Shown here: positions 1 through 17,699 of the stretch, in pieces
How positions within the stretch are numbered: the stretch's first letter is position 1
How the letters are laid out: each line of letters opens with the position of its first letter
Assembly: GCA_043826455.1 (NCBI GenBank)
Contig: JBDRQD010000012.1
Span: forward strand, 1-18,305
Direction: 5' to 3'
Length of the DNA stretch: 18,305 nt
From: Candidatus Bathyarchaeota archaeon
GTDB lineage: Archaea; Thermoproteota; Bathyarchaeia; TCS64
The notes under the pieces: generated by a model
The model's database searches: none
What the model saw: only the letters and a program-made list of their open reading frames with translations
Told to the model about the DNA's origin: nothing
Position numbers and translations under genes: made by a program

Positions 1-171
1 GGCCAGTAGGGCGATCTCCACGGGGATGATCCGTGTGGTCAGTGTGGAGTCGGGGAACGCCACGTAAAGGGTGGCGAGGCTGCCCAAAGTGGCCCAGAAC
101 ACGGCCTTGGTGAGGCTCTTGAAGTCTCCCCGGACGCCGGCCAGGGTCTCCTGGATGCGTTCACGGATCAT
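1..171 (-). CDS. Hypothetical membrane protein, 3' end cut by window edge (MIRERIQETLAGVRGDFKSLTKAVFWATLGSLATLYVAFPDSTLTTRIIPVEIALLA...)
   Basis: Translated by hand. ATG at 171 overlaps the upstream TGA (ATGA), is preceded by GGAGGTG, stays open to position 1 and has a hydrophobic segment. Not in the ORF track. Confidence 0.65.
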   Translation of the reverse strand, partial: MIRERIQETLAGVRGDFKSLTKAVFWATLGSLATLYVAFPDSTLTTRIIPVEIALLA

Positions 172-509
172 GCCAGCACCACCTCCAGGGCCTTAGCCTT
201 CATGGGTGAGCCGCATGAGGGGCAGTAGTTGGGGTTGGGGCTCACCTTGCCGCAGCCTGGGCACGTGGGCAGAGGTTCAGGCTCCGGGGCTTGCTCCACC
301 TCTAGGCCCGGGTCTATGCGTTCATAGTGCTCGTCTAGGATGGTGTCAGGCCGCCAGGGGAAGCCCCCGAGGTCGCCACATGCGTCCAGCTTCTGGATGC
401 GTTCCAGCCGCTTTAGGCAGACGGGGCCGATGCCCTGCTTAACGCTCACCGGGTCGGTGAGTTTGCGCCCGCAGACCCGGCACCGGGTCACCACCTTGAT
501 GGGTGTCAT
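168..509 (-). CDS. DUF6011-like zinc-binding protein with C-terminal zinc ribbon (113 aa)
   Basis: N-terminal CRVCGRKLTDPVSVKQGIGPVC matches the DUF6011 pattern. C-terminal CPGCG...YCPSCG. ATG 509 has GGAGG upstream and an ATGA overlap. Confidence 0.8.
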   Translation of the reverse strand: MTPIKVVTRCRVCGRKLTDPVSVKQGIGPVCLKRLERIQKLDACGDLGGFPWRPDTILDEHYERIDPGLEVEQAPEPEPLPTCPGCGKVSPNPNYCPSCGSPMKAKALEVVLA

Positions 510-682
510 GCCTCGGCCTCCTCTGGGTTGCGCCAGAACCACCAGCTAGCGGCCCTCCGCCACGTGGTGACCCTGACCCCGGCTCTCCCGGCCCTCACCA
601 GGGCGTCCAGGGCTGCCATGATGCCCAGGATCATGGCGAGCATGAAACCCCACGCGAATCCGGTGAGGTGGGCTTCTATCAT
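506..682 (-). CDS. Small membrane protein, 58 aa (MIEAHLTGFAWGFMLAMILGIMAALDALVRAGRAGVRVTTWRRAASWWFWRNPEEAEA)
   Basis: Translated by hand; absent from the ORF track, whose shortest entries are 60 aa. ATGA overlaps at both ends, GGAGG upstream, one N-terminal TM helix followed by an Arg/Trp-rich tail. Confidence 0.7.
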   Translation of the reverse strand: MIEAHLTGFAWGFMLAMILGIMAALDALVRAGRAGVRVTTWRRAASWWFWRNPEEAEA

Positions 683-876
683 TGTATGGCCTCCAGCTGG
701 TCGTTGATCTCCCGCAGCCGGCGGGTCTCATGGGGCCAGGGGTAGCCGCGCTGGCCCACGGCCTCGCACAGCCTGTCCGCCTCAGCTACGAGGGCGGCGG
801 CCTCCTGTTCGATACCCCTAAATTCTCTGGGACCCACCTCATGGTGGAGCTCCCGGGTGGCTGACGGCTCCTTCAA
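679..876 (-). CDS. Hypothetical small helical protein (65 aa)
   Basis: TTG start overlaps the upstream TGA and its stop overlaps the next ATG. Composition is protein-like. Confidence 0.6.
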   Translation of the reverse strand: MKEPSATRELHHEVGPREFRGIEQEAAALVAEADRLCEAVGQRGYPWPHETRRLREINDQLEAIQ

Positions 877-980
877 AACGCATCAACCCCCCAGGGCTCC
901 ACACACGCCCCGTGTCTCCATCTCAGCCGTCTCTCCCCCCAGTCAACGCTTAGACACCTCCACCGCGGGCCCCGGCTCAT
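873..980 (-). CDS. Possible 35-aa protein (MSRGPRWRCLSVDWGERRLRWRHGACVEPWGVDAF)
   Basis: ATG 980 is preceded by GGGAGG and its TGA overlaps the TTG of the next gene. It overlaps ORF 943-1164 by 38 nt, so it is uncertain. Confidence 0.35.
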   Translation of the reverse strand: MSRGPRWRCLSVDWGERRLRWRHGACVEPWGVDAF

Positions 981-1164
981 GGTCCCGGCCTCCCTCCCAC
1001 CCGTCACCCAATCGTTTCTCATGGACGCCGCGCCCCGCCTTCCTTTTCTGAAGCATCTCCCAGAAGACCCCCTCCCAGGCGGGGAGACGCCCCGGCGCCT
1101 CCTCGGGTCCCCTCCGGCTCCTCGGCCCTCCGGCCTCCACGCCCTCAGTCCCACCCATGCTCAT
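943..1164 (-). CDS. Hypothetical protein (73 aa)
   Basis: ATG preceded by GGAGGTGGAGG and overlapping the end of the RHH gene. No recognisable motif. Confidence 0.4.
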   Translation of the reverse strand: MSMGGTEGVEAGGPRSRRGPEEAPGRLPAWEGVFWEMLQKRKAGRGVHEKRLGDGWEGGRDHEPGPAVEVSKR

Positions 1165-1339
1165 GCTCAGCCTCCACCTCCACCCCGTCGACGGGTGCCT
1201 CGGCCGCGGGGGCCCTGGCCTCCAGGGCCTCCCTGAGGAGGATCCTTATCATGTTGGTCTTGCTCCGATCCTCCGACTCGGCCAGCAGCAGGATCTGGGC
1301 CGTGAGGGCCTCGTCCATGGTCACAGTAATCCTGGACAT
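1145..1339 (-). CDS. CopG/Arc-type ribbon-helix-helix regulator (64 aa), first gene of the leftward operon
   Basis: MSRITVTMDEALTAQILLLAESEDRSKTNMIRILLREALE shows an alternating beta strand, a helix, the 'RS' turn and a second helix. GGTGA precedes ATG 1339; alternative TTG at 1348. Confidence 0.85.
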   Translation of the reverse strand: MSRITVTMDEALTAQILLLAESEDRSKTNMIRILLREALEARAPAAEAPVDGVEVEAEHEHGWD

Positions 1340-1375
1340 AATCACCAATCCTCATCAGAACAGACTTGATCTAAT

Positions 1376-1384
1376 CTATATAAG
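1376..1384 (-). promoter_or_regulatory. TATA box of the leftward operon (CTTATATAG on minus strand)
   Basis: Archaeal TATA consensus about 37 nt upstream of ATG 1339 in an AT-rich intergenic region. Confidence 0.55.
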
Positions 1385-1400
1385 GCTATTCGTGGTGTAT

Positions 1401-1450
1401 TCATCACCATTTCACACCACTGCACACCACTGCGCACCGTTACACACCAC
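1401..1450. repeat. Five tandem 10-bp imperfect direct repeats (core CACCAC), putative RHH operator array
   Basis: TCATCACCAT/TTCACACCAC/TGCACACCAC/TGCGCACCGT/TACACACCAC. Inverted related copies GTGGTGTA at 1392-1399 and TTGGTGTA at 1478-1485. Confidence 0.8.
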
Positions 1451-1498
1451 AAAACATATATTGCTGTTTGATTAAAATTGGTGTAGAGTGATGCGAAA

Positions 1499-1873
1499 GT
1501 GGCTGAGGAGGAGAAGAAGCGGGTGACCATCACCCTCCAGAGCGAGGTCCTGGAGTGGATAGACGCCAAGATCGAGGAACGGGTCTTCCACAACTACCAG
1601 CACGCAGTGGACTACTGCCTCATGAAGGTGTACCAGGACGAGTACCCCAGGTTCACCCACTACAACGTGTACGATGACCACGCCACCATATACGATAACC
1701 TGAGGAAGCGGATCGTGGACGTCTACTTCAGGGAGGGCCCCTACTGTGAGGCGTGCGAGGAGGCGGACTGTGAGCACGTCCGCTTCGCGCTGAGCCTCCC
1801 CAAGGTTGTGGAGCCTCTCCGCGCGAAGGGGTGGATCATCAAGGACGGGCGGGCAGTGTCCAAGCCGAGCTAG
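1499..1873 (+). CDS. RHH-domain regulator with C-terminal zinc-finger-like domain; putative element repressor (124 aa)
   Basis: N-terminal KRVTITLQSEVLEWIDAKIEERVFHNYQHAVDYCL is RHH-like. C-terminal CEAC-x4-CEH resembles a SWIM-type Zn site. Divergent from the small RHH gene. Confidence 0.75.
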   Translation: MAEEEKKRVTITLQSEVLEWIDAKIEERVFHNYQHAVDYCLMKVYQDEYPRFTHYNVYDDHATIYDNLRKRIVDVYFREGPYCEACEEADCEHVRFALSLPKVVEPLRAKGWIIKDGRAVSKPS

Positions 1874-2044
1874 AGGACGCCCAGGCACCCTGTAGCCTTG
1901 CCGGGAGACCCCGGGCGCTCAATCATTGTCTGCCTCTCCTCTCTACACGCTATTTCTTAATTCGGGGAGCCTCTCACTTCCCTAACCAGTCTTCTACGCC
2001 CGGTCACGTGTGCTTCGCTGTACGCGTCAAACCGCAGAGGCCCG

Positions 2045-4198
2045 TTACCGGCGTTCAAGAACCTCGACTACCTCCTTCACCCATATGTGCCGGTCACCCT
2101 TACGGCCGTAAACCTCGGCGACGGCCCTGAACTTCGCCCCCTTCCGAAGGAGACCCGACGGGCCATCATACTCCTCGACCACCAGCGTCGCCCTCTCACC
2201 CTCATCCACGGTGACCTCCGCGTAGCCCCTATGCACCTTGTCAACCCACACAGTGTGGGTCTCCCCGACCCTTCTCAGGGCGGTGGACGCCACGTACCTG
2301 TCCCCCGACAAGGAGACCAGCCCCTGGCCCCCAAGCTTCTTCAAGGCAGGCCCCAGGATGTTTAACTCAGGGTCATCCATGTCCCAGGCCAGCTGGTCCG
2401 CGGTCGCTCCCTCCGCGCCCCTCTCCAGCAGCCTGAGGTACACCTCCTTAGCGGCCCGCTCCACCAGCCTCCGCGTCTCCCGTAGCCTCGTGGACTGGCT
2501 GCCCTCCGCCTCCTCGGCCTCCACGAGCCCACGTGTAGCAGCCATCACCTCCGCCCTTTCCTCGTCGCCCCCGTCCTGGTCCTCCAGGGCCCAGAGCTCC
2601 TCCGCCGTCATGGGGTCAGGCGGCCTGGGCGGCCTGGACCGCACCACCTCGGGAAGCCCCTCGTTAATAGACAGAACCAGCCTCCTCATCCGTTCCGTCC
2701 TCCTCCTGCTCGCGTACAGGTACGTGTAGTCCAGGGTGTCCTCGGCGGCCAGTATGGTCACCCTCCCCGAGGTGCGGCGCCCCGTCCGGCCCCGCCTCTG
2801 GATGTACCTGATGCCGCTGGGTATGGGCTCGTAGAAGTAGACGTGGTCCACTGAGGGTATGTCCAGGCCCTCCTCCCCGATGCTGGTGCAGACCAGCACG
2901 TTCAGCTCCCCGCTCCTCAGCATCTCTATGCGCCTGGCCTGCTCGTCCTGGCTCAGCCCCTCATCCCCGGCCCGGGAGCTCTGGCCCACGAACCGGTGGG
3001 CCCTGACGCCCGGCACCCTGCCCAGCATCTCCGCCAGGTGGGCGGCCGTCTCCCGGTACTGGGTGAACACCAGTATCCGGGTGGAGGGTCGGAGACCCAC
3101 CTCCTCGTCCACCATCCCGAGAAGCAGCGTGGCCTTGGGGTGCTCCACCGGGTTCCGCAGCAGCAGATCCCTGAGGGCCACGTACTCCGGGTCCTTGGCG
3201 AGGACCGCGTAGCTGTACTTCCTGGACTTCGCCTCCACCTGCCCGGTGAAGGCCAGGAGGGTGTGGGTGCCCTGGGTCTCCAGGAGCTCCAGCATATGGA
3301 AGATGGTGAGGCCCAGGGACTGGTTCACTATGGCCTGGATCAGTCTGCCCCTCTCCTCCTCTATGCTCATCTCCATCTGGTACCTCAGCTCCTCCCCGAG
3401 GCGAAGCAGGTCGCCTCGCCCCGTGAAGCCTCCGCCCCGGAGGTGGCCGCGGGCTCGGAGCCAGTTCAGCCGCTTCTCCAGCAGGGACCTGATCTGGGCC
3501 CTGGCGGCCTGGTACACGGCGGGCAGCTTGACGGGCTTCCACTCCATCTCTATGTCCTGGATGTAGGGGGCTACGTCCGGGTCCTCCTCTGTCCTGTACT
3601 CCGCGTGCTCCACGTAGAGGCCCCTGCAGACCTCCTGCAGCTTCTCAGGCTCGGAGCCGGGGGAGGCGGTCATCCCCAGTATGCAAGGGTACGTGGCCTG
3701 CTCCGCGTAGCGTCCAGCGATCTCCCTGTAAGCGTAGTCCCCCACGGCCCTGTGGCACTCGTCGAAGACCAGTAGACTGTAATCCGTCAGGGTGACCCTG
3801 CCCTCCCTCAGGTCGTTCCTCACCACCTGAGGGGTGGCGAAGACCAGGCGGGCGCCGCCGCGCCACACGGTCTCCCTGAGGTGTGGAGGCGTCTCCCCTG
3901 TGAGGATGGCGGTGTCCACTGGCCTGAGCTTCAACGCGTTGAGGTAAGTGTTCATGTGCTGGAGGACTAGAGGCCTGGTGGGGGCCATGACCAGCACCCT
4001 GCTGCCCCTGTACTTGTAGAGGGCGTCGGCCGCCACCAGCACCGAGATGATGGTCTTCCCGAGGGCCGTGGGCAGGATGACGAGGGTGTTCGCCCTGGAG
4101 GCGGCCTCGGCTATCTTCTCCTGGTAGAGCCTCTTCTCGACTCTGCCCTGCCTGATGAGAGGGTGCTCCACGGCGCCGTGGGTGGGTCTAGTATCCAT
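2045..4198 (-). CDS. hef: Hef/FANCM/Mph1-family SF2 helicase lacking the ERCC4 nuclease domain (717 aa)
   Basis: Hef-type N-terminus (EHPLI...RLYQ), motif I LPTALGKT, DECH, TASP, FTQYRET, TSIGEEGLDIP and QRRGRTGR. No ERKxxxD nuclease motif in the C-terminus. Confidence 0.9.
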   Translation of the reverse strand: MDTRPTHGAVEHPLIRQGRVEKRLYQEKIAEAASRANTLVILPTALGKTIISVLVAADALYKYRGSRVLVMAPTRPLVLQHMNTYLNALKLRPVDTAILTGETPPHLRETVWRGGARLVFATPQVVRNDLREGRVTLTDYSLLVFDECHRAVGDYAYREIAGRYAEQATYPCILGMTASPGSEPEKLQEVCRGLYVEHAEYRTEEDPDVAPYIQDIEMEWKPVKLPAVYQAARAQIRSLLEKRLNWLRARGHLRGGGFTGRGDLLRLGEELRYQMEMSIEEERGRLIQAIVNQSLGLTIFHMLELLETQGTHTLLAFTGQVEAKSRKYSYAVLAKDPEYVALRDLLLRNPVEHPKATLLLGMVDEEVGLRPSTRILVFTQYRETAAHLAEMLGRVPGVRAHRFVGQSSRAGDEGLSQDEQARRIEMLRSGELNVLVCTSIGEEGLDIPSVDHVYFYEPIPSGIRYIQRRGRTGRRTSGRVTILAAEDTLDYTYLYASRRRTERMRRLVLSINEGLPEVVRSRPPRPPDPMTAEELWALEDQDGGDEERAEVMAATRGLVEAEEAEGSQSTRLRETRRLVERAAKEVYLRLLERGAEGATADQLAWDMDDPELNILGPALKKLGGQGLVSLSGDRYVASTALRRVGETHTVWVDKVHRGYAEVTVDEGERATLVVEEYDGPSGLLRKGAKFRAVAEVYGRKGDRHIWVKEVVEVLERR

Positions 4199-4201
4199 GG
4201 T

Positions 4202-4519
4202 CTACAGCTCTATGACCTTCTCCTTCTCTCCCAACGCTTTAAACTGGTTCAGGTCGTCAAGCATCCCGAGGAGCCTCTGGAGCCTCTCGTACTGGAACAG
4301 CTCGTTCAGGGCGTCCAGCTCCTCGCTGGTTCTCAGGACGAGGCCCCGTTTCTTGGTGGGGTTTCCCCGGCTGTCCGCGGGGTTGAGCTCCACGGCGAGG
4401 CGCGGGGGGCTCTTCTGGTACTTGGGGAGCTTCAGGACGTAGACGCCTGGGACGGTGGTTCCAAGCCTCTCCCAGTCCTTGCCCTTGTCCAGGAACTCCT
4501 TGAGCTTGTTCTCCGCCAT
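4202..4519 (-). CDS. Conserved archaeal hypothetical protein (105 aa)
   Basis: DWERLGTTVPGVYVLKLP...LAVELNP...PTKKRGL resembles an uncharacterised archaeal family (recalled, not searched). ATG 4519 is preferred because a TATA-like CTTAA lies about 32 nt upstream. The stop is 3 nt before the helicase ATG. Confidence 0.8.
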   Translation of the reverse strand: MAENKLKEFLDKGKDWERLGTTVPGVYVLKLPKYQKSPPRLAVELNPADSRGNPTKKRGLVLRTSEELDALNELFQYERLQRLLGMLDDLNQFKALGEKEKVIEL

Positions 4520-4707
4520 GAGGGTCTGGTTAGGTTTCGTCTGTGGAGGGGTTAAGGGTTTCGAGCACCCATAACGCGGCGGGAAACTCACCTCAGAAGG
4601 GTCTGACACCTAGCCGCAGGGGAGAGAACCTCCTTCATACATCATCGCGTGGAGTGGTCACGAACATCTGGGTGGTGCTGATGCAAAGGGATCACGGGTA
4701 GAGAAGA

Positions 4708-5715
4708 CTACTCTTCCTCTAATCTGGGCTTAGCCTCTTCACCCTCATCGTCTGAGCTGGGGAAGCTGCCGTCCTCGTCAGTGACCCCCGCCAGCGTTAT
4801 CGCGATCCTGACCTTCTCCTCCGGCAGGTAGGGGCTGTCTATGACCCGGACCAGCCGGGTGTTTGCGCGCCCTTTCCTGAGGTAAACTCTGTGAGTGCAG
4901 GCGTGGGCCATGACGTGGCCCCCTGTGGGCCTGTTGGGGTCACCGTATGCGGCGTCCGGCTTGGCCTGAACCTGGTTGGTTAGGACAACGGCCAGGCTGA
5001 AGGCCTCGGCGATCCTCAGCAGGTTGCCCAGGGCGTTGCCCAGCTTCTGCTGCCTCTCGGCGAGGGTGGCTCTGCCTATGTACTCGCCCCTGAAGTGGCC
5101 TATCATGCTGTCCACTATGACCAGCTTGACGTCGTGCTCCTGGCAGACTTGGGGGAGGTTCTTGATTAGTATTATCTGGTGCTCACTGTTGTAGGCGCGG
5201 GCTATGAAGATGTTTCTCAGGATCTCATCGGGGTCGTAGCCCCTGGCCTTGGCTATCTGGGATATCCGTTCGGGGAGGAAGGTGCCCTCGGTGTCTATGA
5301 CGCATACGCGTCCCCCGAAGCCGCCTTCCTCCACGGGTCGCTGTGCCAGAACGGAGAGAGTGTAGCATATCTGGGTCTTGCCTGAGGCGAACTCTCCGAT
5401 GAGCTCGGTGATGACGCCGGTCTCGACGCCGCCGCCCAGTATGCGGTTGAGTTCGTTGGAGCCGGTCCTGCAGCGCATCATGTGGCTGCGCATCTCCAGC
5501 ATGTCCTGGGCTGAGACGAACCCAGGGTCCACCTTGAGGCGCGCCAGGGCGTTCACCTTTATGGCGGTGTCCGCGCCCATGCCGGTTAGCTCCACGATCT
5601 GGCGGGGGGGAGTAACCGCGATGGATTCGAGGGTGACTAACCCGGCCTTGTGCAGCTTCTTCAGGGTGGTGCTGGCGACTCCTTCCAGGCTTCCAGCCTC
5701 AACTACCTCTCCCAT
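4708..5715 (-). CDS. radA: RadA/Rad51-family recombinase, full length but divergent (335 aa)
   Basis: N-terminal HhH-like domain, FxxA polymerisation motif (FVSA), Walker A GEFASGKT, Walker B LVIVDS, HFRGEYIGR..LAERQQKL, GGHVMAH and DSPYLPE. Confidence 0.93.
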   Translation of the reverse strand: MGEVVEAGSLEGVASTTLKKLHKAGLVTLESIAVTPPRQIVELTGMGADTAIKVNALARLKVDPGFVSAQDMLEMRSHMMRCRTGSNELNRILGGGVETGVITELIGEFASGKTQICYTLSVLAQRPVEEGGFGGRVCVIDTEGTFLPERISQIAKARGYDPDEILRNIFIARAYNSEHQIILIKNLPQVCQEHDVKLVIVDSMIGHFRGEYIGRATLAERQQKLGNALGNLLRIAEAFSLAVVLTNQVQAKPDAAYGDPNRPTGGHVMAHACTHRVYLRKGRANTRLVRVIDSPYLPEEKVRIAITLAGVTDEDGSFPSSDDEGEEAKPRLEEE

Positions 5716-5730
5716 ACACTCTCAAGGCTC

Positions 5731-5759
5731 TTCACGTGGTCCACGGCTTTTAACGTGAA
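5731..5759 (-). promoter_or_regulatory. radA promoter with nested palindromes (putative operator)
   Basis: TTCACGT-N15-ACGTGAA brackets the TATA-like TTAAAA (5748-5753, minus strand). Inner palindrome CGTGG-T-CCACG at 5735-5745. Confidence 0.45.
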
Positions 5760-5983
5760 CGCACAGGGATACAAGGGGGAGGTGGGTGAAAGTGGGGTGG
5801 AAGTGGATAATGAATTAGTGGTGATGCGCGAACCGTGGGCGCGGTGATGTATAAAGGAGTTTTCCTGATGATTATCTCGCTTTACCTGTAGACTTGTGTT
5901 TGAGTCTCATCCAAGGCACTGAAAACCGTTTCATAACCAATGCAATGGTATAAAATTTTAGGGTATCCATTCCCGCGCCTCCT

Positions 5984-7165
5984 CTATGCCACCATCTTCT
6001 CCCGAGTCTTCTCGTACCGCTCCCGCTCACGGATCCACGTCTGGACCTCCTCCAGCTGGGCCCGCAGCTCCGCGTTCTCGGCCTCCACCTGGCCGACCCT
6101 CTCGGTCAGGTTCTGGAAGGCGGCCTTGCTGATGCCTTGGGCGGAGTCGGATAGGGCGGTGAGCTCGTCTCTGCTGGTCTTCTCCACGGCTAGCAGGTGC
6201 TCGTAGTTGGCGTATATCTCCCTGAGCTCGTCCAGGGGTATGTTGATGTAGGTGCTCTTCTCCTGCCCGATCTCGTGGCCCATGAGGAACTCTATGAGCT
6301 GCCCATCCATCTTCCCGGTGAGCCTGGACCGGAAGGCTGCCCGTAGGCTGTGGGCGCGGGCCGGGTTGAAGGAGTTCTCCAGGTCCTCCTCGTAGATGAA
6401 GTTGAGCTTCTCGGCGTACCGTCTCAGCATGACGCATACGGCGTTCCGTGGGAGCCGTTTCTCTGTCCCCAGCTTGGTGAACAGTGGAGCGTTATCCTTC
6501 AGGGGTTCCCTGGACTTGAGGTATAGTCGGAGGTACCGGACAGCGTCGGCGCCTATGAAGGTCCTCACCTGCACCCCCGTCTTCTCCCGGTACCCCTGCA
6601 TGGCCAGGGGCAATGTGCCGGCCTCGTACTCCCGCTTGATGTCCCGGTAGTCCAGCTTCAGTATATCGCCGAGGCTGAGCCCCGACTGGAAGGCTGTCAG
6701 CACCAGGGCCTTATCGCGCAGGTACTCGCAGGCGTCCACCAGCTGCTTGACCTGGTCCAGGGTCCACTCATGCTTGTCGTTCTGCTTGAGGGGCCTGTCG
6801 GGGGGCAGCTGTATGAACTCGAGGCTGAGGTTTACGCCATAGTACTTGAGGTAGTTCTGGAGGGCCGCCAGGCTCTGGCGTGCGGATTTGGGGGCGAAGC
6901 CTGTCTCCTCGAGCCACTTGATGAAGCCTCTGGTGGTGGCTTCCCCGGGTCTGATTCTCGCGGTCAGGCTGCGGTTCTTGTTCTGCTCTGTTTCTTGTTC
7001 GATCTCCTGGATGAAATCTGCCAGGGGTCTGCCATAGTAGTAGTTGAAGCGTCTGAGGGCTACCTTGTAGGCTTTGGCTGTGCCCGGCTTCTTGGTCTTC
7101 AGGAAACGGGTAGCGGTCTCGTCCAGATGGACGTCCCCCGTGGGGAACTTGCTGGTGTTAGGCAT
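5984..7165 (-). CDS. Tyrosine recombinase/integrase with C-terminal coiled-coil extension
   Basis: SAM-like N-domain (T..AY...LRRF), LRDKALV..AFQSGL box I, REKT, HSLR, LMGH and STY catalytic Tyr. ATG 7165 is preferred because TTATATA lies at 7196-7202; the ORF track extends to TTG 7189. Confidence 0.9.
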   Translation of the reverse strand: MPNTSKFPTGDVHLDETATRFLKTKKPGTAKAYKVALRRFNYYYGRPLADFIQEIEQETEQNKNRSLTARIRPGEATTRGFIKWLEETGFAPKSARQSLAALQNYLKYYGVNLSLEFIQLPPDRPLKQNDKHEWTLDQVKQLVDACEYLRDKALVLTAFQSGLSLGDILKLDYRDIKREYEAGTLPLAMQGYREKTGVQVRTFIGADAVRYLRLYLKSREPLKDNAPLFTKLGTEKRLPRNAVCVMLRRYAEKLNFIYEEDLENSFNPARAHSLRAAFRSRLTGKMDGQLIEFLMGHEIGQEKSTYINIPLDELREIYANYEHLLAVEKTSRDELTALSDSAQGISKAAFQNLTERVGQVEAENAELRAQLEEVQTWIRERERYEKTREKMVA

Positions 7166-7326
7166 GACGGTCAAATAGCCTTCAACCAACCCCCCTATAT
7201 AATTCTTTTCACTTCAGCTTACTTAATGTGAGTTTTTTTGGATTGCTCATAGCCGATTTCAGGTATCTCCGGTGGCACGCCATGATCCTGGAGAAGAGCT
7301 CCTGATCGACACAACCCATATATTTC

Positions 7327-7342
7327 ACCCAAAACTTTGGGT
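7327..7342. promoter_or_regulatory. Palindromic operator of the TA operon (ACCCAAA-AC-TTTGGGT)
   Basis: Perfect 7-bp inverted repeat between a TATA-like ATATATTT (7318-7325) and the antitoxin start, as expected for AbrB-type autoregulation. Confidence 0.55.
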
Positions 7343-7354
7343 AACTGACAAGGT

Positions 7355-7597
7355 TTGCACGAGACCACCTACCATAAAGACAAGATATACATCCCGCGGG
7401 AAGTCAAGGAGCGGCTCAGCCTCAGGGACGGGGATCGCCTGACCATCGAGGTGACGGACAGCGACGAGGCCAGAATAAAGATCCTGTCGAACGACCGGGC
7501 GACCATTGAGCTGTTGGAGCTTCTGGAGAACCCGCCCAGGATGGGCAAGATTAAAGGTAGGCTCACGAGGCGCGACATATATGAGGATGTTACTTGA
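7355..7597 (+). CDS. vapB: AbrB/MazE/SpoVT-family antitoxin (80 aa)
   Basis: KIYIPREVKERLSLRDGDRLTIEV is the swapped-hairpin signature. Overlaps the PIN gene. Confidence 0.85.
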   Translation: MHETTYHKDKIYIPREVKERLSLRDGDRLTIEVTDSDEARIKILSNDRATIELLELLENPPRMGKIKGRLTRRDIYEDVT

Positions 7598-8027
7598 CAC
7601 CAATGTCCTCGTGTACGCCATCAACTCTGAGTCGCCCAAACACGCCTCATCAGCACAGGTGCTCCATGATGCTCTGACTGGCCGCATCCAGGCCTGCATA
7701 GCACACCAGAGCATCCACGAGTTCTACTCCGTAGTGACAAACAGGAAGAAAGTTCAAAGCCCATTGACTCCCAGTCAGGCTCACATGGTAGCTACGCTAC
7801 TGCTGCAGACGCCGCGGGTAGAGAAGCTGGCCCAGGACCAGTCAACGACGCAGCTGGCCCTGGCCCTGGCTGATGAGCACGGTGTATCAGGCCCCCCGTT
7901 CTTTGACTGCCTCCTGGCCGCCACAGCGAAACAGCACAACATAGGCACCATTGTGACGGAGAACACGAAGGATTTTTCGCTGTATACCTTCATCAAAGCC
8001 GTCAAATCGGGCTCAGACAGCCTATAA
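7581..8027 (+). CDS. vapC: PIN-domain toxin, VapC family (148 aa)
   Basis: LLDTNVLVYA, HEFYSVVT, FDCLLAATA and TENTKDF acidic motifs. ATG 7581 (or 7587) overlaps the antitoxin stop. Confidence 0.9.
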   Translation: MRMLLDTNVLVYAINSESPKHASSAQVLHDALTGRIQACIAHQSIHEFYSVVTNRKKVQSPLTPSQAHMVATLLLQTPRVEKLAQDQSTTQLALALADEHGVSGPPFFDCLLAATAKQHNIGTIVTENTKDFSLYTFIKAVKSGSDSL

Positions 8028-8093
8028 GTAGTCTAGTTATGCTTGTTATCGGGTGAAAGGGGGATTATTTTTAGCGGAAAGAGGTGCCGCTGC

Positions 8094-9101
8094 CTAGCCG
8101 CAGACGGCCTTGATGAGCCTCAGATGGTTGCCGCCTAGTATATTCCTCACATCGTCCTCGCCGTAGCCTCTTTTTACTAGTTCAGCTGTTAATCCGGGCA
8201 TCCTAGTCACGTCCTCCAGGCCCTCAGGGGTTGACGGGATGCCGTCGAAGTCGCTGCCCAGCCCCACGTGGCCCGGCCCAACGAGCTCCACTATGTGGTC
8301 TATGTGGTCCACCACTCCCGCCAACGTCGCCCTCTTCGAGTGGACGAAGCCTGGGGCGAAGTTCATCCCCATGACGCCCCCCTTCTCCGCCAGGGCACTG
8401 ATCATGTCGTCAGTCATGTTCCTGGGGTGGTCGCAGACCGCCCTCGCATTGCTGTGGCTGGCGACGACGGGGTCACTGCTAAGCTCCAACGCGTCCCGGA
8501 AGCCCTCGTCGTTCAGGTGGCTCACGTCAACGATCATGCCCAGCCTGTTCAGCTCGTCGACGGCCTGGGCCCCCAGCTCGCTGAGGCCGCCCCCTGTGCG
8601 CCTGTCGGCCACGCCGTCAGCCAACTCGTTCCTGATGCTGTGGACCAGGCCCACCATGCGTACCCCCAGCCTGTGGAAGACGCGGAGCACGTCCACGCTG
8701 CCCTCCAGGACGTCCGCGCCCTCGATGCTCAGCATGGCCGCCACCTTCCCAGCCCTCTTGGCCTGAACTATCTCGTCGTGGGTGGTCACAGGAACCATGG
8801 CGCCGCTGTTGGCCTCACACTCTCTGTAGAACCGGTCGATCATCTCCAGCGCTGTCCTGAGGCTGTGGCTGGGGGTCCTGCTCCGCTCCCCGCTGATGGC
8901 GAAGACCTGGCACGTGACGCCCCCCTCCAGGAGCCTGGGGACATCCACGTGGCCCATGCTGCTCCTAGCCCCCATGCCTACCTTGCTTCGGTCACCCCAC
9001 ATGCTGTCCCTGGGCCGGGTGAACACCGGCAGAAGGCACTTCAGCGTGTCGCAGTGGGTGTCCACCACAAACGAGTCCCTGTGAAGCTTAACGTAGTCCA
9101 A
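8094..9101 (-). CDS. Membrane (renal) dipeptidase, peptidase family M19
   Basis: DTHCD, SIEG, DVSH, SHSNA and GSDFDG motifs. Confidence 0.93.
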   Translation of the reverse strand: MDYVKLHRDSFVVDTHCDTLKCLLPVFTRPRDSMWGDRSKVGMGARSSMGHVDVPRLLEGGVTCQVFAISGERSRTPSHSLRTALEMIDRFYRECEANSGAMVPVTTHDEIVQAKRAGKVAAMLSIEGADVLEGSVDVLRVFHRLGVRMVGLVHSIRNELADGVADRRTGGGLSELGAQAVDELNRLGMIVDVSHLNDEGFRDALELSSDPVVASHSNARAVCDHPRNMTDDMISALAEKGGVMGMNFAPGFVHSKRATLAGVVDHIDHIVELVGPGHVGLGSDFDGIPSTPEGLEDVTRMPGLTAELVKRGYGEDDVRNILGGNHLRLIKAVCG

Positions 9102-9153
9102 ACGCGTCCCTGATCAGACTTGTACGGTGGTCTAATAAGACTGGCGGAGGCGC

Positions 9154-9483
9154 CTAGATGACGAACCTGCTCTGATCTTCGTCCCGCTGCTTGCCAAGCC
9201 CCTTCTGCATGCCCTGGTCCGTCACGTCAAGGTCGTACTCTATGAAGCCGGTGACCATGTCGATGATCCTGTCGCTCATCTCCTGGAGCTCGTCGCGGTT
9301 GAACTGGCTCATCACCTCGGGGCTGTTCACCCACTGCATCCAGCCTCCCAGGCTCTGGCTGAGGGCGCTGAAGCTGAACCTCATGCTCTTCAACAGGTCG
9401 AGCCTGTCCATGTCCCTCTTCTCCTTCAGTAATCGCAGCTGCTCCATGGTCTTCTCACTCCTGTCGATCCAGGTGCTGTTCAT
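9154..9483 (-). CDS. DUF2153-family archaeal protein
   Basis: DRLDLL..MR......QSL.GW.QW...P helical pattern typical of DUF2153. Confidence 0.75.
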   Translation of the reverse strand: MNSTWIDRSEKTMEQLRLLKEKRDMDRLDLLKSMRFSFSALSQSLGGWMQWVNSPEVMSQFNRDELQEMSDRIIDMVTGFIEYDLDVTDQGMQKGLGKQRDEDQSRFVI

Positions 9484-9516
9484 ATCTTTACCCGGGATAG
9501 ACTCTTGCGGCGGGTA

Positions 9517-10708
9517 TTAAACTGTGTGGACTGCGGCCCGGGGCTCGGTGATGAAGAAGGCGGGCACCAGGCTGACGATGGTCACAGCCGAGATGTAGGT
9601 GAAGCCCCAGCCGAACCCGAAGAGCTCTATGATGTACCCGAAGACCACGCTGCTCACAGAGGCCAGGGTGAACCCAATGGTGAAGTAGAGGCCGAATATC
9701 TGGTCCAGTTGGCTCCGCTCAACAGAGTCTGAAAGCACGCTCTGCACTATCACAGTCTGCACCATGAACCCCGTCAGGAACAGCACCGCGGCCAGGAGCC
9801 ACAGGTCGGTGACCACCCCGACAAGGTAGTAGAGGACGCCGCTCGACGCCACAACGCCTATGATCAGGGGCTTCCTGTTCACCCTGTCGCTCAGGTACCC
9901 CCAGAAGAAGGGCCCAGCCACCCCTCCGAACAGGAGGACGCTGTACAGGACGCTGCTGGTCTCCGGGGTCACCCCCAGCACGTTGATGAAGTATAGGGGC
10001 AGGAAGGTGCGGACGCCCATCCTGAAGGCCATCACGCTGCGCAGCAGGCTGATGGCCAGCACGTTCCTGTTCCGGAGGGCCTCTCTGAGCCTGCCCCAGC
10101 TGAGGGCGTCCCTGGTGGTGGCCTCCGCCTGATCTGAGCCCCTCACCAGGAAGATCATCACCAGGGACACCAGGAGCGCCGGCACCGAGAGCACCCCCAG
10201 AGTCAGCCTCCACCCCATCCTCGTCACCAGATACGCAGCCAGCAGCGGCGTCAGGCTGAAGGCCAGGCTGGGGGCCGACTGGTTCAGGCCCAGCATCCTT
10301 CCCCTCTTGGATGGGTCAGACGCCGTGGACACCAGGGACGCCCCCACAGGGTGCTGGGGGCTGCTCCCCACGCCTGCCAGGACGCTGAGGGCGAAGAACT
10401 GGGTGAACCCCCGGCTGACGCTGGTCAGCAGGTTCAGCCCCGCGTTGATCAGGTTGCCCCCCCCCTATGAGGACGCGGCCGCTCATCCACCTTCTTAGCA
10501 CCCCCACGAACATCTGGGGGAACCCCGCCGAGAAGGTGGCTGCCGAGCGTATGAGGCCCAGCTGGCTGTAGCTGAGGCTGAACTCGTTCATGATGTCCGG
10601 GTACAGGATGGGTAGGCCGCCGCTCACCATGTGGTTCAGGGTGTGGAGGACTATGACCATCCCCACCAGAACCTTGTTGCCCTTCTCCGGGTTCTCCTCT
10701 CTACTCAA
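9517..10708 (-). pseudogene. MFS transporter split by a +1 frameshift in a G9 run (possibly a sequencing error)
   Basis: The N-terminal TM helices of ORF 10316-10708 join the frame of ORF 9517-10371 (…VLIGGG|NLINAGLNLL…GVGSSPQHP) if one G is removed at 10457-10465, giving 396 aa. MFS motif GYLSDRVNRK. Confidence 0.8.
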
Positions 10709-10805
10709 AATAATCGAATCGATTAAGCCTCATCATTATATGTTTGTATCGGTAGCCCGAGTGATCGAAGACTTAAATTTAGGGGCCAAGGTTAGTTGTC
10801 GATGG

Positions 10806-10892
10806 GCCGGGGTCGCTTAGCCTGGTAGAGCGCCAGCCTGGAAAGCTGGTGTCCGCAAGGACACAAGGGTTCAAATCCCTTTCCCGGCGCCA
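10806..10892 (+). tRNA. tRNA-Ser: tRNA-Ser(GGA), intronless, CCA encoded
   Basis: Acceptor GCCGGGG/TCCCGGC, anticodon arm CCAGC-CTGGAAA-GCTGG, long variable arm TGTCC-GCAA-GGACA, T arm AAGGG-TTCAAAT-CCCTT, discriminator G. TATA-like TTAAAT at 10773-10778. Confidence 0.97.
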
Positions 10893-10952
10893 AAAACATA
10901 CCCCAAAACCATACCGGGGATTCATAACCGTTTTACGAAGATAAAACAAGGT

Positions 10953-11375
10953 ATGCTGGTCCGTGGCATGTCGGAGACGAAGAGGAAGTACTTCACCTTT
11001 GAGGAGGAAGAGTTGAAGTGGATAGACCCTCTCCTCTATGAATGGTCTAAGAACGAGGGGAAGCCCTATAGCGACCTCATCCTGCAGCTGCTGAAAGATT
11101 ACAGAGACAGGGAACCGCCTCTAAGAGACACACTGGACATGGCCGCCAGCTCGATGAAGGATATACTGTCAGACTACTCGGCTCGATCCAAGGACGCTCT
11201 GAACGACGTCATGGAGAAATCGATGGACGGCTTGCAGACTGTACAGAGCAAATTGCAGTCTGGCGGAACCAAGTTAATGGATCAGTTTCACAGGGTAGAG
11301 TCAAACGTCCGCACAAAGCTGGAAGACGTCAAGGCTGAGAGAAGACAGCCAAACGACGACCCTGAAGAAGTTTAG
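10953..11375 (+). CDS. Hypothetical protein with RHH-like N-terminus and amphipathic helical C-terminus (alternative start 10968)
   Basis: KRKYFTFEEEELKWID...GKPYSDLILQLLKDY has a strand-helix-helix pattern. More A-rich than its neighbours. Confidence 0.7.
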   Translation: MLVRGMSETKRKYFTFEEEELKWIDPLLYEWSKNEGKPYSDLILQLLKDYRDREPPLRDTLDMAASSMKDILSDYSARSKDALNDVMEKSMDGLQTVQSKLQSGGTKLMDQFHRVESNVRTKLEDVKAERRQPNDDPEEV

Positions 11376-11452
11376 GCCCTATCCAAACTCCTCCTAGAAC
11401 AAGTGGCGCGCTCAAGTCATCCAGATTCATGCACTTATTTCGTCATAATGAT

Positions 11453-11482
11453 ACAGGGATTCAAATCCCTTTTCCAGCGCCA
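11453..11482 (+). repeat. Degenerate direct repeat of the tRNA-Ser 3' end (att-like scar)
   Basis: ACAGGGATTCAAATCCCTTTTCCAGCGCCA versus 10863-10892 ACAAGGGTTCAAATCCCTTTCCCGGCGCCA: 26/30 identical, ungapped. Confidence 0.85.
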
Positions 11483-11493
11483 ACCATAACCAG

Positions 11494-11883
11494 TTATTCC
11501 TGAACTAGGTGCAGTTCCGTGTCGTCGGGGTCCTTGAAGAAGACAGTGAGGCGGCCGGGCCTCCCTGCTATGGGGGTGGGTGGTGAGTCGAACCTTATCC
11601 TATCCTTGAGTCGACTATAGGAAGCAGCCACGTCGGGGACCCTGAACCCCATGTGCCTGAACCCTAGGTCACTGAGCCTCCTGGGCGGCCTGTGGGTCTC
11701 CAGGCCCTCCCGCTGGTGCATGAGCTCTATCTTGGTTTCGCCGAGCCTCATGACGGCGACCCTGTCGTCGGGCCTCTGTATGGTCTGGACGTGTTTGAAT
11801 CCTAGGAGCCTGTAGAACTCTACGCTGCGCTCCAGGTTCTGGACGACGATGAGGACGTGGTCGAAGGTGAAGTCCGCAGCCAT
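11494..11883 (-). CDS. VOC/glyoxalase-family protein
   Basis: DHVLIVVQNLERSVEFY..LLGF, IELM, HMGFRV.D and FFKDPD..LHL. Confidence 0.9.
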   Translation of the reverse strand: MAADFTFDHVLIVVQNLERSVEFYRLLGFKHVQTIQRPDDRVAVMRLGETKIELMHQREGLETHRPPRRLSDLGFRHMGFRVPDVAASYSRLKDRIRFDSPPTPIAGRPGRLTVFFKDPDDTELHLVQE

Positions 11884-12013
11884 CTATCTCTCGCCTCATA
11901 TCTCCCGTGGTTACCCACATAAAACACTGTCTTCCATGACGGGCTCCCGCTCCACGGCGTTAAGGCTTATCCGCGTACGCGTCTCAGCATCATGCGGACG
12001 GTTGGCGACATCA

Positions 12014-12967: not shown

Positions 12968-12984
12968 ACCTCCTGAGGGGTCCC

Positions 12985-13602: not shown

Positions 13603-13634
13603 GCCCTCACCCCCACCATAGGTCAGTGATTTAA

Positions 13635-14270: not shown

Positions 14271-14310
14271 GCGAAGACCATAATTATTGGCCGCCCGTAT
14301 TCAAGGTTTC

Positions 14311-15492: not shown

Positions 15493-15544
15493 GCGCTGTG
15501 AACATGATCGTAACTCTTTTCACGTTTCCGTCATCGTCCTAGCC

Positions 15545-17020: not shown

Positions 17021-17084
17021 GCTGAATCAGAGAAAGGATTGCGGACTTCCTTAAAGCGTGTTCGATGGAAAAAGGGGTGGGGGG

Positions 17085-17618: not shown

Positions 17619-17699
17619 AATGGTCAGGAAAATGGGGGAGCCTCAGGCAATAAAGCCTTGGCTGGTTACCGTTTCCGGAAGGTTACGGGGCTGGGCGGG

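What the first reader, a model, noticed from the sequence alone, without database searches (positions are those of the whole stretch)
2045..5715. Candidate new system: RadA + small conserved protein + nuclease-less Hef between integrase and repressor
Seen: three co-oriented genes between the integrase and the RHH switch, the last two separated by only 3 nt, with intact ATPase motifs in both enzymes. Known: RadA catalyses strand exchange and Hef/FANCM remodels forks and D-loops; both are normally single chromosomal genes, and the integrase-repressor interval of temperate viruses often carries lysogen-expressed cargo. Inference: an element-encoded recombination and fork-remodelling module. It could serve recombination-dependent replication or homology-driven integration, DNA-damage sensing for induction, or defence against competing replicons.
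Basis: partly seen in the sequence, partly recalled or inferred. Interest (0 to 1): 0.8.

Follow-up and report, generated by a model that had tools for sequence, protein, structure and literature searches.

The report
Mobile element carrying recombination gene trio
An integrated mobile element in an uncultured Bathyarchaeia archaeon carries a working-looking set of three DNA-recombination genes that is an ordinary chromosomal gene cluster in related archaea, here rebuilt from a copy of the host's own second RadA gene plus a foreign helicase pair.

Summary
On the minus strand lie a tyrosine integrase (5984-7189), a full-length RadA (4708-5715), a small conserved protein (ORF 4202-4609, probable start 4519, 105 aa) and a Hef-type helicase without nuclease (2045-4198), with 3 nt between the last two.

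Window 1 to about 7250 is one arm of an integrated element. Related copies lie on four other contigs, and a 141-base perfect overlap continues the arm on contig C52. Relatives lack it at this site.

The trio itself is not a new kind of system.
- Bathyarchaeia have two deep RadA clades, and every Hef-linked RadA I sampled falls in the second (RadA-2).
- The small gene lies directly upstream of the helicase in 39 of 75 loci from several archaeal phyla.
- The full trio, in the same order, is chromosomal in other Bathyarchaeia.
- Helicase-only Hef with a separate XPF is already in print.

What is unusual is the mosaic. The radA segment (4653-5836, promoter included) is a 90% DNA copy of the host's own radA-2. 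The small gene and helicase are foreign, and only 1 of 24 other genomes of the genus holds such a helicase.

Most likely this is accessory cargo for fork restart or recombination. The small protein is an uncharacterised family, possibly ssDNA-binding.

The parts
1..171 (-). Cut end of an element gene, homologue of the 171-aa protein of the C36 element. It runs off the contig and continues on contig C52.
   Evidence: 62.5% identical to the C36 copy and 89% to the C56 copy. Window 1-141 is 100% identical to the reverse complement of C52:1-141.
168..542 (-). Element protein with DUF6011 and a zinc ribbon
   Evidence: Pfam DUF6011 E=3.4e-14. Weak PHROG hits of unknown function. Homologues in the C56 (60%) and C36 (51%) elements.
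1167..1355 (-). Probable ribbon-helix-helix protein, first gene of the leftward early block
   Evidence: 55% over 38 aa to the C36 protein that hits Pfam RHH_5 and RHH_1. No Pfam hit of its own.
1499..1873 (+). Conserved 124-aa element protein, divergent from the early block. Possible regulator; function unknown.
   Evidence: 91% aa identity to C36:77536-77907, against 65% for the opposite-strand frame. No Pfam, PHROG or NCBIfam hit.
2045..4198 (-). Helicase-only Hef/FANCM-type SF2 helicase with a C-terminal helix, small winged-helix-like element and OB/S1-like barrel. No ERCC4 nuclease.
   Evidence: NF010337 positions 4-521 of 781, 559 bits. The family profile hits the P. furiosus Hef helicase 1WP9 at E=7e-163 and FANCM 9EL5 at 1.7e-92. 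C-terminal model pLDDT 89; best Foldseek hits are S1/OB domains, E >= 2.7e-3.
4202..4519 (-). Small conserved protein (105 aa; the ORF extends to 4609). Uncharacterised family, possibly ssDNA-binding.
   Evidence: 59 close homologues. 429 cluster representatives at E <= 1e-3. No Pfam, NCBIfam or PHROG family. Model pLDDT 79; best structural match SIRV1 ORF131 (2x5h), Z 5.6.
4653..5836 (-). Segment copied from the host radA-2 locus: the RadA gene (4708-5715), 121 bp upstream (with a TTAAAA box) and 55 bp downstream
   Evidence: 90% nt identity to G000:C72:8073-9255. The same end points match four other genus genomes. dS 0.23 and dN/dS 0.24 against C72.
5984..7189 (-). Tyrosine integrase of the element
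   Evidence: Pfam Phage_integrase 48.3 bits. PHROG 1 integrase E=1.7e-21. A 56% paralogue lies on C25.
7225..7247 (.). 23-base exact repeat just outside the integrase start. Candidate attachment core or a dispersed repeat; unresolved.
   Evidence: Identical to C61:13846-13868, E=3.7e-5. The C61 copy is intergenic, between host-type genes.

Best explanation
Window 1 to about 7250 is the integrase-proximal arm of an integrated element of an uncultured Bathyarchaeia archaeon. Between its regulatory region and its integrase the element carries accessory cargo: a three-gene homologous-recombination and fork-restart module.

The module is a mosaic of two parts. One is a recent DNA copy of the host's own second RadA paralogue (radA-2), taken with its promoter. 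The other is a foreign gene pair encoding a small protein and a helicase-only Hef. Together they rebuild a gene cluster that is chromosomal in other Bathyarchaeia but that this host genus has lost: the helicase is gone, and radA-2 and the small gene are scattered.

Inferred mechanism (not shown): RadA-2 forms filaments on single-stranded DNA and performs strand exchange. The small protein binds ssDNA or acts as mediator, with its conserved disordered acidic-hydrophobic C-terminal tail as a docking peptide. The Hef helicase, guided by its C-terminal OB module, remodels stalled forks and D-loops. The host's separate short XPF could supply the cut.

The cargo is dispensable for the element's own cycle. 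It most likely benefits the lysogen (restoring a Hef pathway), or the element's replication and repair, or both.
For: An element, not host DNA:
- It has an integrase.
- The early region (1-1888) is homologous to other copies in the genome: C36, C56, C37, C20, C52.
- A 141-base perfect overlap links C12 to C52, 13.9 kb of mostly ORFans.
- In genus relatives, host synteny begins only at about 8094. Of 19 window proteins, only M19, DUF2153, the 10953 ORF, the glyoxalase and a weak MFS match are found in the syntenic loci of G013 and G019.

The arrangement is real:
- A 4460-base metagenome contig is collinear with window 989-5442 at 95.6%.
- Logan contigs from 4 runs of 4 studies cover the integrase, RadA, small gene, helicase and regulator, and bridge the regulator/helicase and small-gene/RadA junctions.

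Host origin of RadA:
- 90% nt identity including both flanks.
- It lies inside the genus RadA-2 clade (100/100 support).
- dS to own-genome C72 is 0.23, lower than C72 to its nearest orthologues (0.28-0.32). dN/dS is 0.24.

Foreign origin of the small gene and helicase:
- The helicase is found in 1 of 24 other genus genomes and is the only Hef helicase in this genome.
- The window's small protein is 55-62% identical to Hef-linked copies elsewhere, but 39-50% to the genus's own chromosomal copies.

The cluster is ancestral and chromosomal elsewhere:
- The small gene lies directly upstream of the helicase in 39 of 75 loci.
- RadA lies within 700 bp upstream in 8 of 67 loci, and the full trio in 4.
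- L102 sits beside FEN1 and PheRS, and L103 beside housekeeping genes.
- All 9 Hef-linked RadAs fall in RadA-2.

Accessory status: the sibling arm C56 joins the same C52 backbone, and its divergent integrase sits next to tRNA-Ala with no such cargo. The C36 copy also lacks it.
Against: - The element's two ends are not defined. The other end is on another contig and no flanking direct repeat was shown. The only repeat of the integrase-side sequence lies in host DNA on C61.
- The integrase and the early region are linked only by this contig and by analogy with C56. No single outside contig spans integrase to regulator.
- No expression data.
- The small protein's role rests on a Z 5.6 fold match and weak PC4-like hits.
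- The protein tree puts the window RadA as sister to C72 + G008 + G019, not to C72 alone (95/91). The donor may therefore be a close relative and not this very genome.
- The genome is a MAG with 7.2% contamination, so C12 and C72 could come from two co-binned strains.
Confidence: 0.55

Rival explanations
1. The trio is the element's own recombination-dependent replication or repair machinery, working like phage T4 UvsX/gp32/UvsW and needed for its propagation.
For: Recombinase + small putative ssDNA binder + SF2 fork/D-loop helicase is the same functional set as in T4 (general knowledge). A second trio (L099) lies about 4.7 kb from a Phage_integrase gene among ORFans, in a MAG that also has another trio (L146).
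Against: The sibling arm C56 uses the same C52 backbone, and the related C36 element is also known; both lack the trio. No relative of the small protein was found in IMG/VR. Only one 38%-identical helicase was found among 6 weak hits there. The RadA copy keeps the host promoter.
Confidence: 0.2
2. Host DNA, not cargo: a remnant of the ancestral chromosomal RadA-2/small/Hef cluster that happens to lie between an unrelated integrase gene and an adjacent element.
For: The cluster is chromosomal in other Bathyarchaeia. RadA follows the genus tree. No att pair was shown.
Against: The helicase was found in 1 of 24 other genus genomes. The small gene and helicase are far more diverged from genus genes than RadA is. 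The sharp ends of the radA homology at 4653 and 5836 show an inserted segment. The block travels with the element's regulator in other samples. Relatives lack window 1-8094 at the syntenic site.
Confidence: 0.15
3. Lysogen-expressed defence or induction sensor: the module detects or destroys competing replicons, or senses DNA damage to trigger induction.
For: Only its position between integrase and regulator, a usual place for lysogen-expressed cargo (general knowledge).
Against: No nuclease or other effector is encoded. I ran no scan of the defence-system library (PADLOC). The same genes are housekeeping-type chromosomal genes elsewhere. Nothing links them to the regulator.
Confidence: 0.05
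4. Binning or assembly artefact: the contig, or the join between radA and its neighbours, is chimeric.
For: The MAG has 7.2% contamination and 81 contigs. Assembly forks occur at both ends of C52.
Against: An independent contig carries the same RadA/small/helicase/regulator order. Logan contigs of other studies bridge the junctions at 4653-4708 and 1873-2045. The host part of the contig matches genus relatives at 70-90%.
Confidence: 0.05

Closest known systems
Helicase-only Hef with a separate XPF nuclease (Thermoplasma acidophilum taHef; split arrangement in Thaumarchaeota and Caldiarchaeum subterraneum)
   Same: The helicase has SF2 motor domains with the Hef-type insertion and no ERCC4 domain. 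A short XPF is encoded elsewhere in the genome. Passages read in PMC4838364 and PMC3082918.
   Different: Here about 190 further residues form a long helix, a small winged-helix-like element and an OB/S1-like barrel. The gene is paired with a small conserved gene and, in part of the Bathyarchaeia, with RadA-2. In this genome it rides on a mobile element. I did not look for a PIP box.
Archaeal RadA (TIGR02236 / NF003301)
   Same: Full length, scores above both curated cut-offs, Walker motifs intact.
   Different: It belongs to a second, deep Bathyarchaeia clade (RadA-2), about 43% identical to the RadA-1 of the same genome. It is the third copy in this genome.
Cryptic integrated elements and proviruses of Thaumarchaeota with tyrosine integrases (Krupovic et al. 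2019, PMC6563490; passages read)
   Same: A tyrosine-integrase element rich in ORFans. TFIIB-like genes occur in related copies. Repair-type cargo is known: one element there carries PolB plus an inactivated RadA homologue.
   Different: Here RadA is full length with intact motifs and under purifying selection, and it is joined to a Hef helicase. No capsid or conjugation marker was found in the parts I scanned.
Phage T4 UvsX / gp32 / UvsW recombination-dependent replication set (general knowledge; functional analogy only)
   Same: A recombinase, a small putative ssDNA-binding partner and an SF2 helicase acting on forks and D-loops, encoded by a mobile genome.
   Different: No homology beyond the RecA and SF2 superfamilies. 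Here the set is accessory and host-derived.
Rudivirus ssDNA-binding / annealing / nuclease operon (SIRV2 gp17-gp19) and SIRV1 ORF131 (PDB 2x5h)
   Same: Best structural match of the small protein: Z 5.6, rmsd 3.9, 80 of 92 residues. SIRV2 gp17 is described as an ssDNA-binding protein of a recombination operon (PMC5062984, passage).
   Different: No sequence similarity was detected. That 2x5h is the gp17 homologue, and that gp17 uses a disordered C-terminal tail to bind its partner, is recalled and comes from no call.

Membership tests
Archaeal RadA recombinase (NF003301, TIGR02236) | Whole-protein score above the curated equivalog cut-off | tested here: met
   387.6 bits against 259, and 368.3 bits against 361.15.
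Archaeal RadA recombinase (NF003301, TIGR02236) | Intact Walker A and B motifs, and an N-terminal HhH domain | tested here: met
   GEFASGKTQ and LVIVDS are in the translation. The RadA model aligns from position 8. Pfam HHH_5 is only weak, E=0.0026.
Archaeal RadA recombinase (NF003301, TIGR02236) | ATP-dependent strand exchange | not testable with these tools
   Needs biochemistry.
Hef (NF010337: helicase + ERCC4 nuclease + HhH2) | Hef/FANCM-type helicase core with insertion domain | tested here: met
   Model positions 4-521 matched. 1WP9 at E=7e-163 over profile positions 15-507.
Hef (NF010337: helicase + ERCC4 nuclease + HhH2) | C-terminal ERCC4 nuclease domain, and a score above the cut-off | tested here: not met
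   No match beyond model position 521. 559 bits is under the cut-off of 610. The only ERCC4 match in the genome is on contig C9. The C-terminus folds as helix + OB-like barrel.
Helicase-only Hef (taHef-like, split Hef/XPF) | Helicase core alone, with XPF encoded separately | tested here: met
   The arrangement is described in PMC3082918 and PMC4838364.
Helicase-only Hef (taHef-like, split Hef/XPF) | PCNA-interacting PIP box behind the helicase core | not tested
   I ran no motif search. No obvious motif noted by eye in residues 500-560.
Integrated mobile element with tyrosine recombinase | Tyrosine integrase gene | tested here: met
   PF00589 48.3 bits (cut-off 27.1). PHROG 1 E=1.7e-21.
Integrated mobile element with tyrosine recombinase | Flanking direct repeats (attL/attR) | tested here: inconclusive
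   The other end is not on this contig. The 23-base repeat at 7225-7247 recurs only in host DNA on C61.
Integrated mobile element with tyrosine recombinase | Absent from the syntenic site of relatives; related copies elsewhere | tested here: met
   In G013, G008 and G019 synteny starts at about 8094-8110. Related copies lie on C36, C56, C37, C20 and C52.
PC4 / SIRV1-ORF131-like small ssDNA-binding proteins | Shared fold (four-stranded sheet followed by a helix) | tested here: inconclusive
   VIA-align: 2x5h Z 5.6; PC4 homologues Z 3.6 and 3.3. Foldseek against PDB and BFVD: nothing at E <= 0.001.
PC4 / SIRV1-ORF131-like small ssDNA-binding proteins | Sequence family membership | tested here: not met
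   No Pfam family for any of the 40 aligned members at a meaningful E-value. No PDB sequence hit better than E=0.37.

The most novel reading that the evidence does not exclude
RadA-2, the ~105-aa protein and the OB-tailed helicase-only Hef form an undescribed, dedicated three-component fork-restart and recombination system of Bathyarchaeia. The small-protein/helicase pair reaches into Nitrososphaeria, Hadarchaeota, Brockarchaeota and Hodarchaeaceae. The small protein would be a new non-OB ssDNA-binding mediator whose conserved C-terminal tail recruits the enzymes. Mobile elements would pick the system up and reassemble it, even from parts of different origin, to restore it in hosts that have lost it. 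That reassembly would be direct evidence that the three genes are selected to be together.
Probability: 0.35. Interest if true: 0.7.

Novelty: new variant of a known kind. Interest (0 to 1): 0.55.

Why it matters
- Full-length, intact RadA and a Hef helicase on an archaeal integrative element are unusual cargo. The one comparable case I read is an inactivated RadA homologue in a thaumarchaeal element (PMC6563490, passage).
- The mosaic origin is a natural experiment. A host radA-2 copy was placed in front of a foreign small-gene/helicase pair, in the same order as the ancestral chromosomal cluster. This argues that the three products work together.
- It singles out a second RadA clade and an uncharacterised small-protein family (429 cluster representatives) as partners of the archaeal FANCM homologue. 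This makes the question of how helicase-only Hef is targeted and coupled to strand exchange testable with three small recombinant proteins.
- My four searches of the open-access library listed no paper whose title or abstract start describes this trio, the RadA-2 clade or the small protein. Subscription-only literature was not searched.

Tried and rejected
- Complex prediction of helicase (alignment A1) with small protein (A2): no answer, score 0.02 against a mark of 0.32. This is no evidence either way.
- Foldseek of the small-protein model against PDB and BFVD: nothing at E <= 0.001.
- ESM Atlas: only unnamed clusters at 0.94-0.96. Sub-threshold leads were PF21017 (0.81) and DUF3276 (0.79).
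- Profile of the small family against PDB sequences: best E=0.37. Pfam over all 40 members: nothing meaningful.
- Longer, fused forms of the small protein: one 252-aa protein without known domains. The representative search showed 2x and 4x tandem-repeat proteins.
- IMG/VR scans: no relative of the small protein or of the integrase. For the helicase, 6 weak hits, the best 38% identical (not followed up).
- Metagenome scan with the helicase: one close locus only.
- Empty-site comparison: the left flank of the syntenic site in G013 maps inside G000:C31, and that of G019 maps to C2. No simple empty site could be reconstructed.
- att search: only the 23-base C61 repeat.
- RNA: no RNA holder listed.
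- Logan contigs do not bridge 7200-7490 or 5836-5865.
- Earlier notes of this scan hold nothing on these genes.
- I first took C36:6205-7422 for an integrase. It is a CoA-transferase.


Full report
1. What is there

The window is a whole contig (G000:C12) of a 2.95-Mb, 81-contig MAG, 97.7% complete with 7.2% contamination. Earlier notes of this scan call the organism an uncultured Bathyarchaeia archaeon. This fits the names carried by the nearest homologues.

On the minus strand lie:
- a tyrosine integrase, 5984-7189;
- RadA, 4708-5715;
- a small ORF, 4202-4609;
- an SF2 helicase, 2045-4198.

Three nt separate the small gene from the helicase.

RadA passes both curated RadA cut-offs. The helicase matches the Hef model only over positions 4-521 of 781 and scores 559 bits, under the cut-off of 610. 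A profile of the helicase family hits the P. furiosus Hef helicase structure 1WP9 at E=7e-163 and human FANCM at 1.7e-92.

Three corrections apply:
- The small protein probably starts at the internal Met, giving 105 aa at 4202-4519.
- The gene next to the helicase is the plus-strand ORF 1499-1873. It is 91% identical to a copy on C36, against 65% for the overlapping minus-strand frame.
- The RHH assignment of 1167-1355 rests on homology to a C36 protein that hits RHH_5.

2. Other copies in the same genome

tblastn and NCBIfam find three full-length RadA genes:
- the window copy;
- C72:8197-9201, 90% aa identity, among housekeeping-type genes (M20 peptidase, DUF998, GTPase, TFIIB, PPDK);
- C57, 43% identity and the best RadA model score, 440 bits.

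A RadB-like gene lies on C48.

The small protein has a 52% paralogue on C79, between a gamma-glutamyltranspeptidase and an M42 peptidase.

The Hef model finds no other Hef helicase. It does find a separate short XPF on C9: model positions 566-766, a 248-aa frame, and the only ERCC4 match in the genome. The window gene is thus the genome's only Hef helicase, and Hef is split from XPF.

That split is already in print for Thaumarchaeota, Caldiarchaeum subterraneum and a minority of euryarchaea (PMC3082918, passage). Thermoplasma acidophilum Hef is a helicase-only form (PMC4838364, passages).

3. Relatives

Search of 41 genomes, G000 included, with each protein:
- Helicase at E <= 1e-50: found in 5 of 41. 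Among the 24 other genomes of the genus it occurs in 1 (G005, 54% identity, at a contig end).
- RadA: found in 40 of 41. Genus genomes typically hold two types, one about 42% identical (RadA-1, as on C57) and one 74-88% identical (RadA-2, as on C72). A few hold a third copy.
- Small protein: found in 23 of 24 other genus genomes at 39-50% identity, and in 0 of 16 outside the genus with this query.

I searched the whole window as DNA against 32 genus genomes, G000 included. The listed matches in the other genomes fall only in 4653-5836 and from about 8090 onward. Inside G000 they also hit C72 (90%, 4653-5836), C36 (75%, 808-1877) and C56 (90%, 1-275). A further 220 matches were not listed.

In G013, G008 and G019 the dipeptidase-DUF2153 block that starts at window 8094-8110 is conserved. 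None of the window proteins to its left is found in the fetched syntenic loci.

4. The element

Window 1-1888 is homologous to the early or regulatory region of an element family present on C36, C56, C37, C20 and C52. Members carry RHH, DUF6011/zinc-ribbon, TFIIB-like and Dam genes and many ORFans.

Window 1-141 is identical to the reverse complement of C52:1-141, and so is C56:1-141. C52 (13.9 kb) therefore continues both arms.

The C56 arm has its early genes, then a 438-aa protein next to tRNA-Ala, and no large cargo. That protein is 20% identical to the window integrase over 275 aa, pairwise E=2e-6. The C36 copy also has no such cargo beside the 124-aa gene. By this comparison the trio is an accessory insertion between regulator and integrase.

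The element's ends are not defined. The only repeat of the integrase-flanking DNA is a 23-base exact match (7225-7247) to an intergenic site among host genes on C61.

5. The arrangement is not an assembly artefact

A 4460-base contig from another metagenome is collinear with window 989-5442 at 95.6%.

Logan contigs from four runs of four studies (groundwater x2, marine, sediment) cover the integrase, RadA, small gene, helicase and regulator, mostly at 90-99% identity. Single contigs bridge 989-2295 and 4523-4947. No single outside contig spans integrase to regulator.

6. Mosaic origin

The radA homology with the chromosomal locus C72 runs from 5836 to 4653. It takes in 121 bp upstream, with a TTAAAA box, and 55 bp downstream, then stops sharply. 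The same end points hold against four other genus genomes.

In trees the window RadA sits inside the genus RadA-2 clade (100/100). It is nearest to C72, G008 and G019. The protein tree makes it sister to those three (95/91).

Synonymous divergence is lowest to the own-genome copy: dS 0.23, against 0.30-0.34 to G008, G013 and G019, and 0.28-0.32 between C72 and those three. dN/dS is 0.24, similar to most orthologue pairs (0.17-0.23; three close pairs are lower, 0.07-0.10). The gene is thus a recent copy from this lineage and is kept under purifying selection.

Other third copies (G005, G006, G023) form a separate clade.

By contrast, the window's small protein is 55-62% identical to Hef-linked copies elsewhere (91% and 80% to two short environmental contigs), but only 39-50% to the genus's own copies. 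The helicase is 97% identical to one 5.1-kb environmental contig and at most 58% to everything else.

7. The trio elsewhere

The genome-collection scan with the helicase alignment confirmed 416 relatives, and 80 loci were kept. They come from Bathyarchaeia, Brockarchaeota, Nitrososphaeria (including Gagatemarchaeum and Conexivisphaera), Hadarchaeota and Hodarchaeaceae, among them complete chromosomes.

- By tblastn the small gene is present in 42 of 80 loci, RadA in 10 of 80, and a window-type integrase in 0 of 80.
- With an HMM of the small family, the small gene lies directly upstream on the same strand in 39 of the 75 loci that have more than 450 bp upstream.
- RadA lies within 700 bp upstream of the helicase in 8 of 67 loci that have more than 1600 bp upstream.
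- The full trio, in the window's order, occurs in 4 loci: L099, L102, L103 and L146.

Contexts of the four trios:
- L102 is followed by FEN1 and both PheRS subunits.
- L103 lies among housekeeping genes.
- L146 lies next to two Cdc6/Orc1 genes.
- L099, from the same MAG as L146, lies about 4.7 kb from a Phage_integrase gene among ORFans, with TGT-like genes on the other side. It is a possible second element-borne case.

The two trios of that MAG are 77% identical in DNA over 3.5 kb, so there the trio moved as a unit.

Five of these genomes, two of them complete chromosomes, each hold RadA-1-like (43-44%) and RadA-2-like (50-58%) genes. In a 32-sequence tree the two clades separate at 100/100, and all 9 Hef-linked RadAs are RadA-2.

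The host genus has lost the helicase and scattered the other two genes, and the element has put a trio together again from two sources.

8. The unknown parts

The small family has 429 cluster representatives at E <= 1e-3 among 1.84 billion (235 at <= 1e-10). It includes proteins with two or four tandem copies of the domain. No Pfam, NCBIfam or PHROG family matches.

The AlphaFold model (pLDDT 79) shows a helix, four strands, two helices and a disordered tail (residues 96-105). Most of the 40 aligned members end this tail in EEV(I/L/F)E(L/I); the window copy ends EKVIEL.

Foldseek finds nothing clear. The exhaustive aligner puts SIRV1 ORF131 (2x5h) first: Z 5.6, rmsd 3.9, 80 of 92 residues. The next rows are at 3.6, and they include PC4 homologues. 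At this Z the match may be only a common arrangement.

SIRV2 gp17 is described as the ssDNA-binding member of a rudiviral binding/annealing/nuclease operon (PMC5062984, passage). That 2x5h is its homologue, and that its disordered C-terminus docks the partner, I recall only. ssDNA binding or mediation is thus a lead, which I put at about 50%.

The helicase's last 185 residues fold with pLDDT 89 into a long helix, a small winged-helix-like unit and a five-stranded barrel. The barrel's best matches are S1/OB domains (exosome, RNase R, NusA, aIF1A, RPA, RMI2) at E 3e-3 to 2e-2.

9. Reading

Shown:
- membership of an integrated-element arm;
- intact genes;
- the host origin of radA and the foreign origin of the pair;
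- chromosomal conservation of the cluster elsewhere;
- absence of the trio from sibling elements.

Inferred:
- that the three products act together in strand exchange and fork or D-loop remodelling;
- that the small protein binds ssDNA and recruits its partners;
- that the cargo restores a Hef pathway to a host that lacks one, or helps the element's replication and repair, or both.

I found nothing in favour of the defence or damage-sensing readings.

10. Verdict

This is a new variant of known kinds: an archaeal integrative element with an unusual, mosaic recombination cargo. It points to a conserved but uncharacterised RadA-2/small-protein/Hef-helicase module.

My four literature searches listed no paper whose title or abstract start describes the trio, the RadA-2 clade or the small protein. 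They cover the open-access library only.

Noticed in passing
window 7225-7247 and G000:C61:13846-13868: A 23-base exact repeat lies just outside the integrase start and again in an intergenic gap between host-type genes on C61. It could be an attachment core, a secondary site, or one of the dispersed intergenic repeats that earlier notes describe for this genome.
   Followed up: partly
window 7272-8027 (+): A VapC-type PIN gene (7506-8027; TIGR00028 81 bits against a cut-off of 73.6) follows a 56-aa upstream ORF (7272-7442). This looks like a toxin-antitoxin pair between the integrase and the first syntenic host gene. It is absent from the syntenic loci of G013 and G019, so it may belong to the element or be a separate insertion.
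   Followed up: partly
window 9530-10799: An MFS transporter gene (9517-10371, only 284 aa) sits between DUF2153 and tRNA-Ser. In G013, G008 and G019 those two are directly adjacent, and the MFS matches lie on other contigs in relatives. This is a local rearrangement or insertion next to the tRNA.
   Followed up: no
G000:C52 ends; C12, C56, C49, C8, C20: Assembly forks occur at both ends of C52. Perfect overlaps of 141 bases join it to C12 and C56, and overlaps of 133 bases join it to C49 and C8. C20 is a 91% variant. At least two near-identical elements, or strain variants, share one backbone with different integrase arms.
   Followed up: partly
L099 (Bathyarchaeia MAG contig CAZNKF010000014.1), about 600-18000: A second RadA/small/helicase trio lies beside a Phage_integrase gene, ORFans, an ArsR-type regulator and two TGT-like genes, with DUF6884 further on. 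The same MAG has another trio next to two Cdc6/Orc1 genes (L146).
   Followed up: partly
G005:C25, G006:C188, G023:C29 (L092, L039, L095): Three other genus genomes hold a third RadA-2 copy (76-79% to the window copy). These form their own clade, sister to G005's chromosomal copy, and are not linked to a small gene or helicase. radA-2 has therefore been duplicated more than once in this genus.
   Followed up: partly
G000:C36:81872-82981 (L088:13873-14985): The related element on C36 encodes its own TFIIB-like protein (two TFIIB repeats and a zinc ribbon) and a Dam-type methylase. C52 has a small TFIIB zinc-ribbon protein.
   Followed up: no
L180 (IMG/VR UViG_3300027715_000146), 9207-10715: One predicted viral contig of 66.6 kb carries a Hef-type helicase (38% identity over residues 10-516) about 10 kb from one end. 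I did not examine whether it lies in viral or flanking host DNA.
   Followed up: no
P0184, P0188, P0193: Proteins with four or two tandem copies of the small-protein domain exist in the representative library. This suggests that the domain works as an oligomer.
   Followed up: partly
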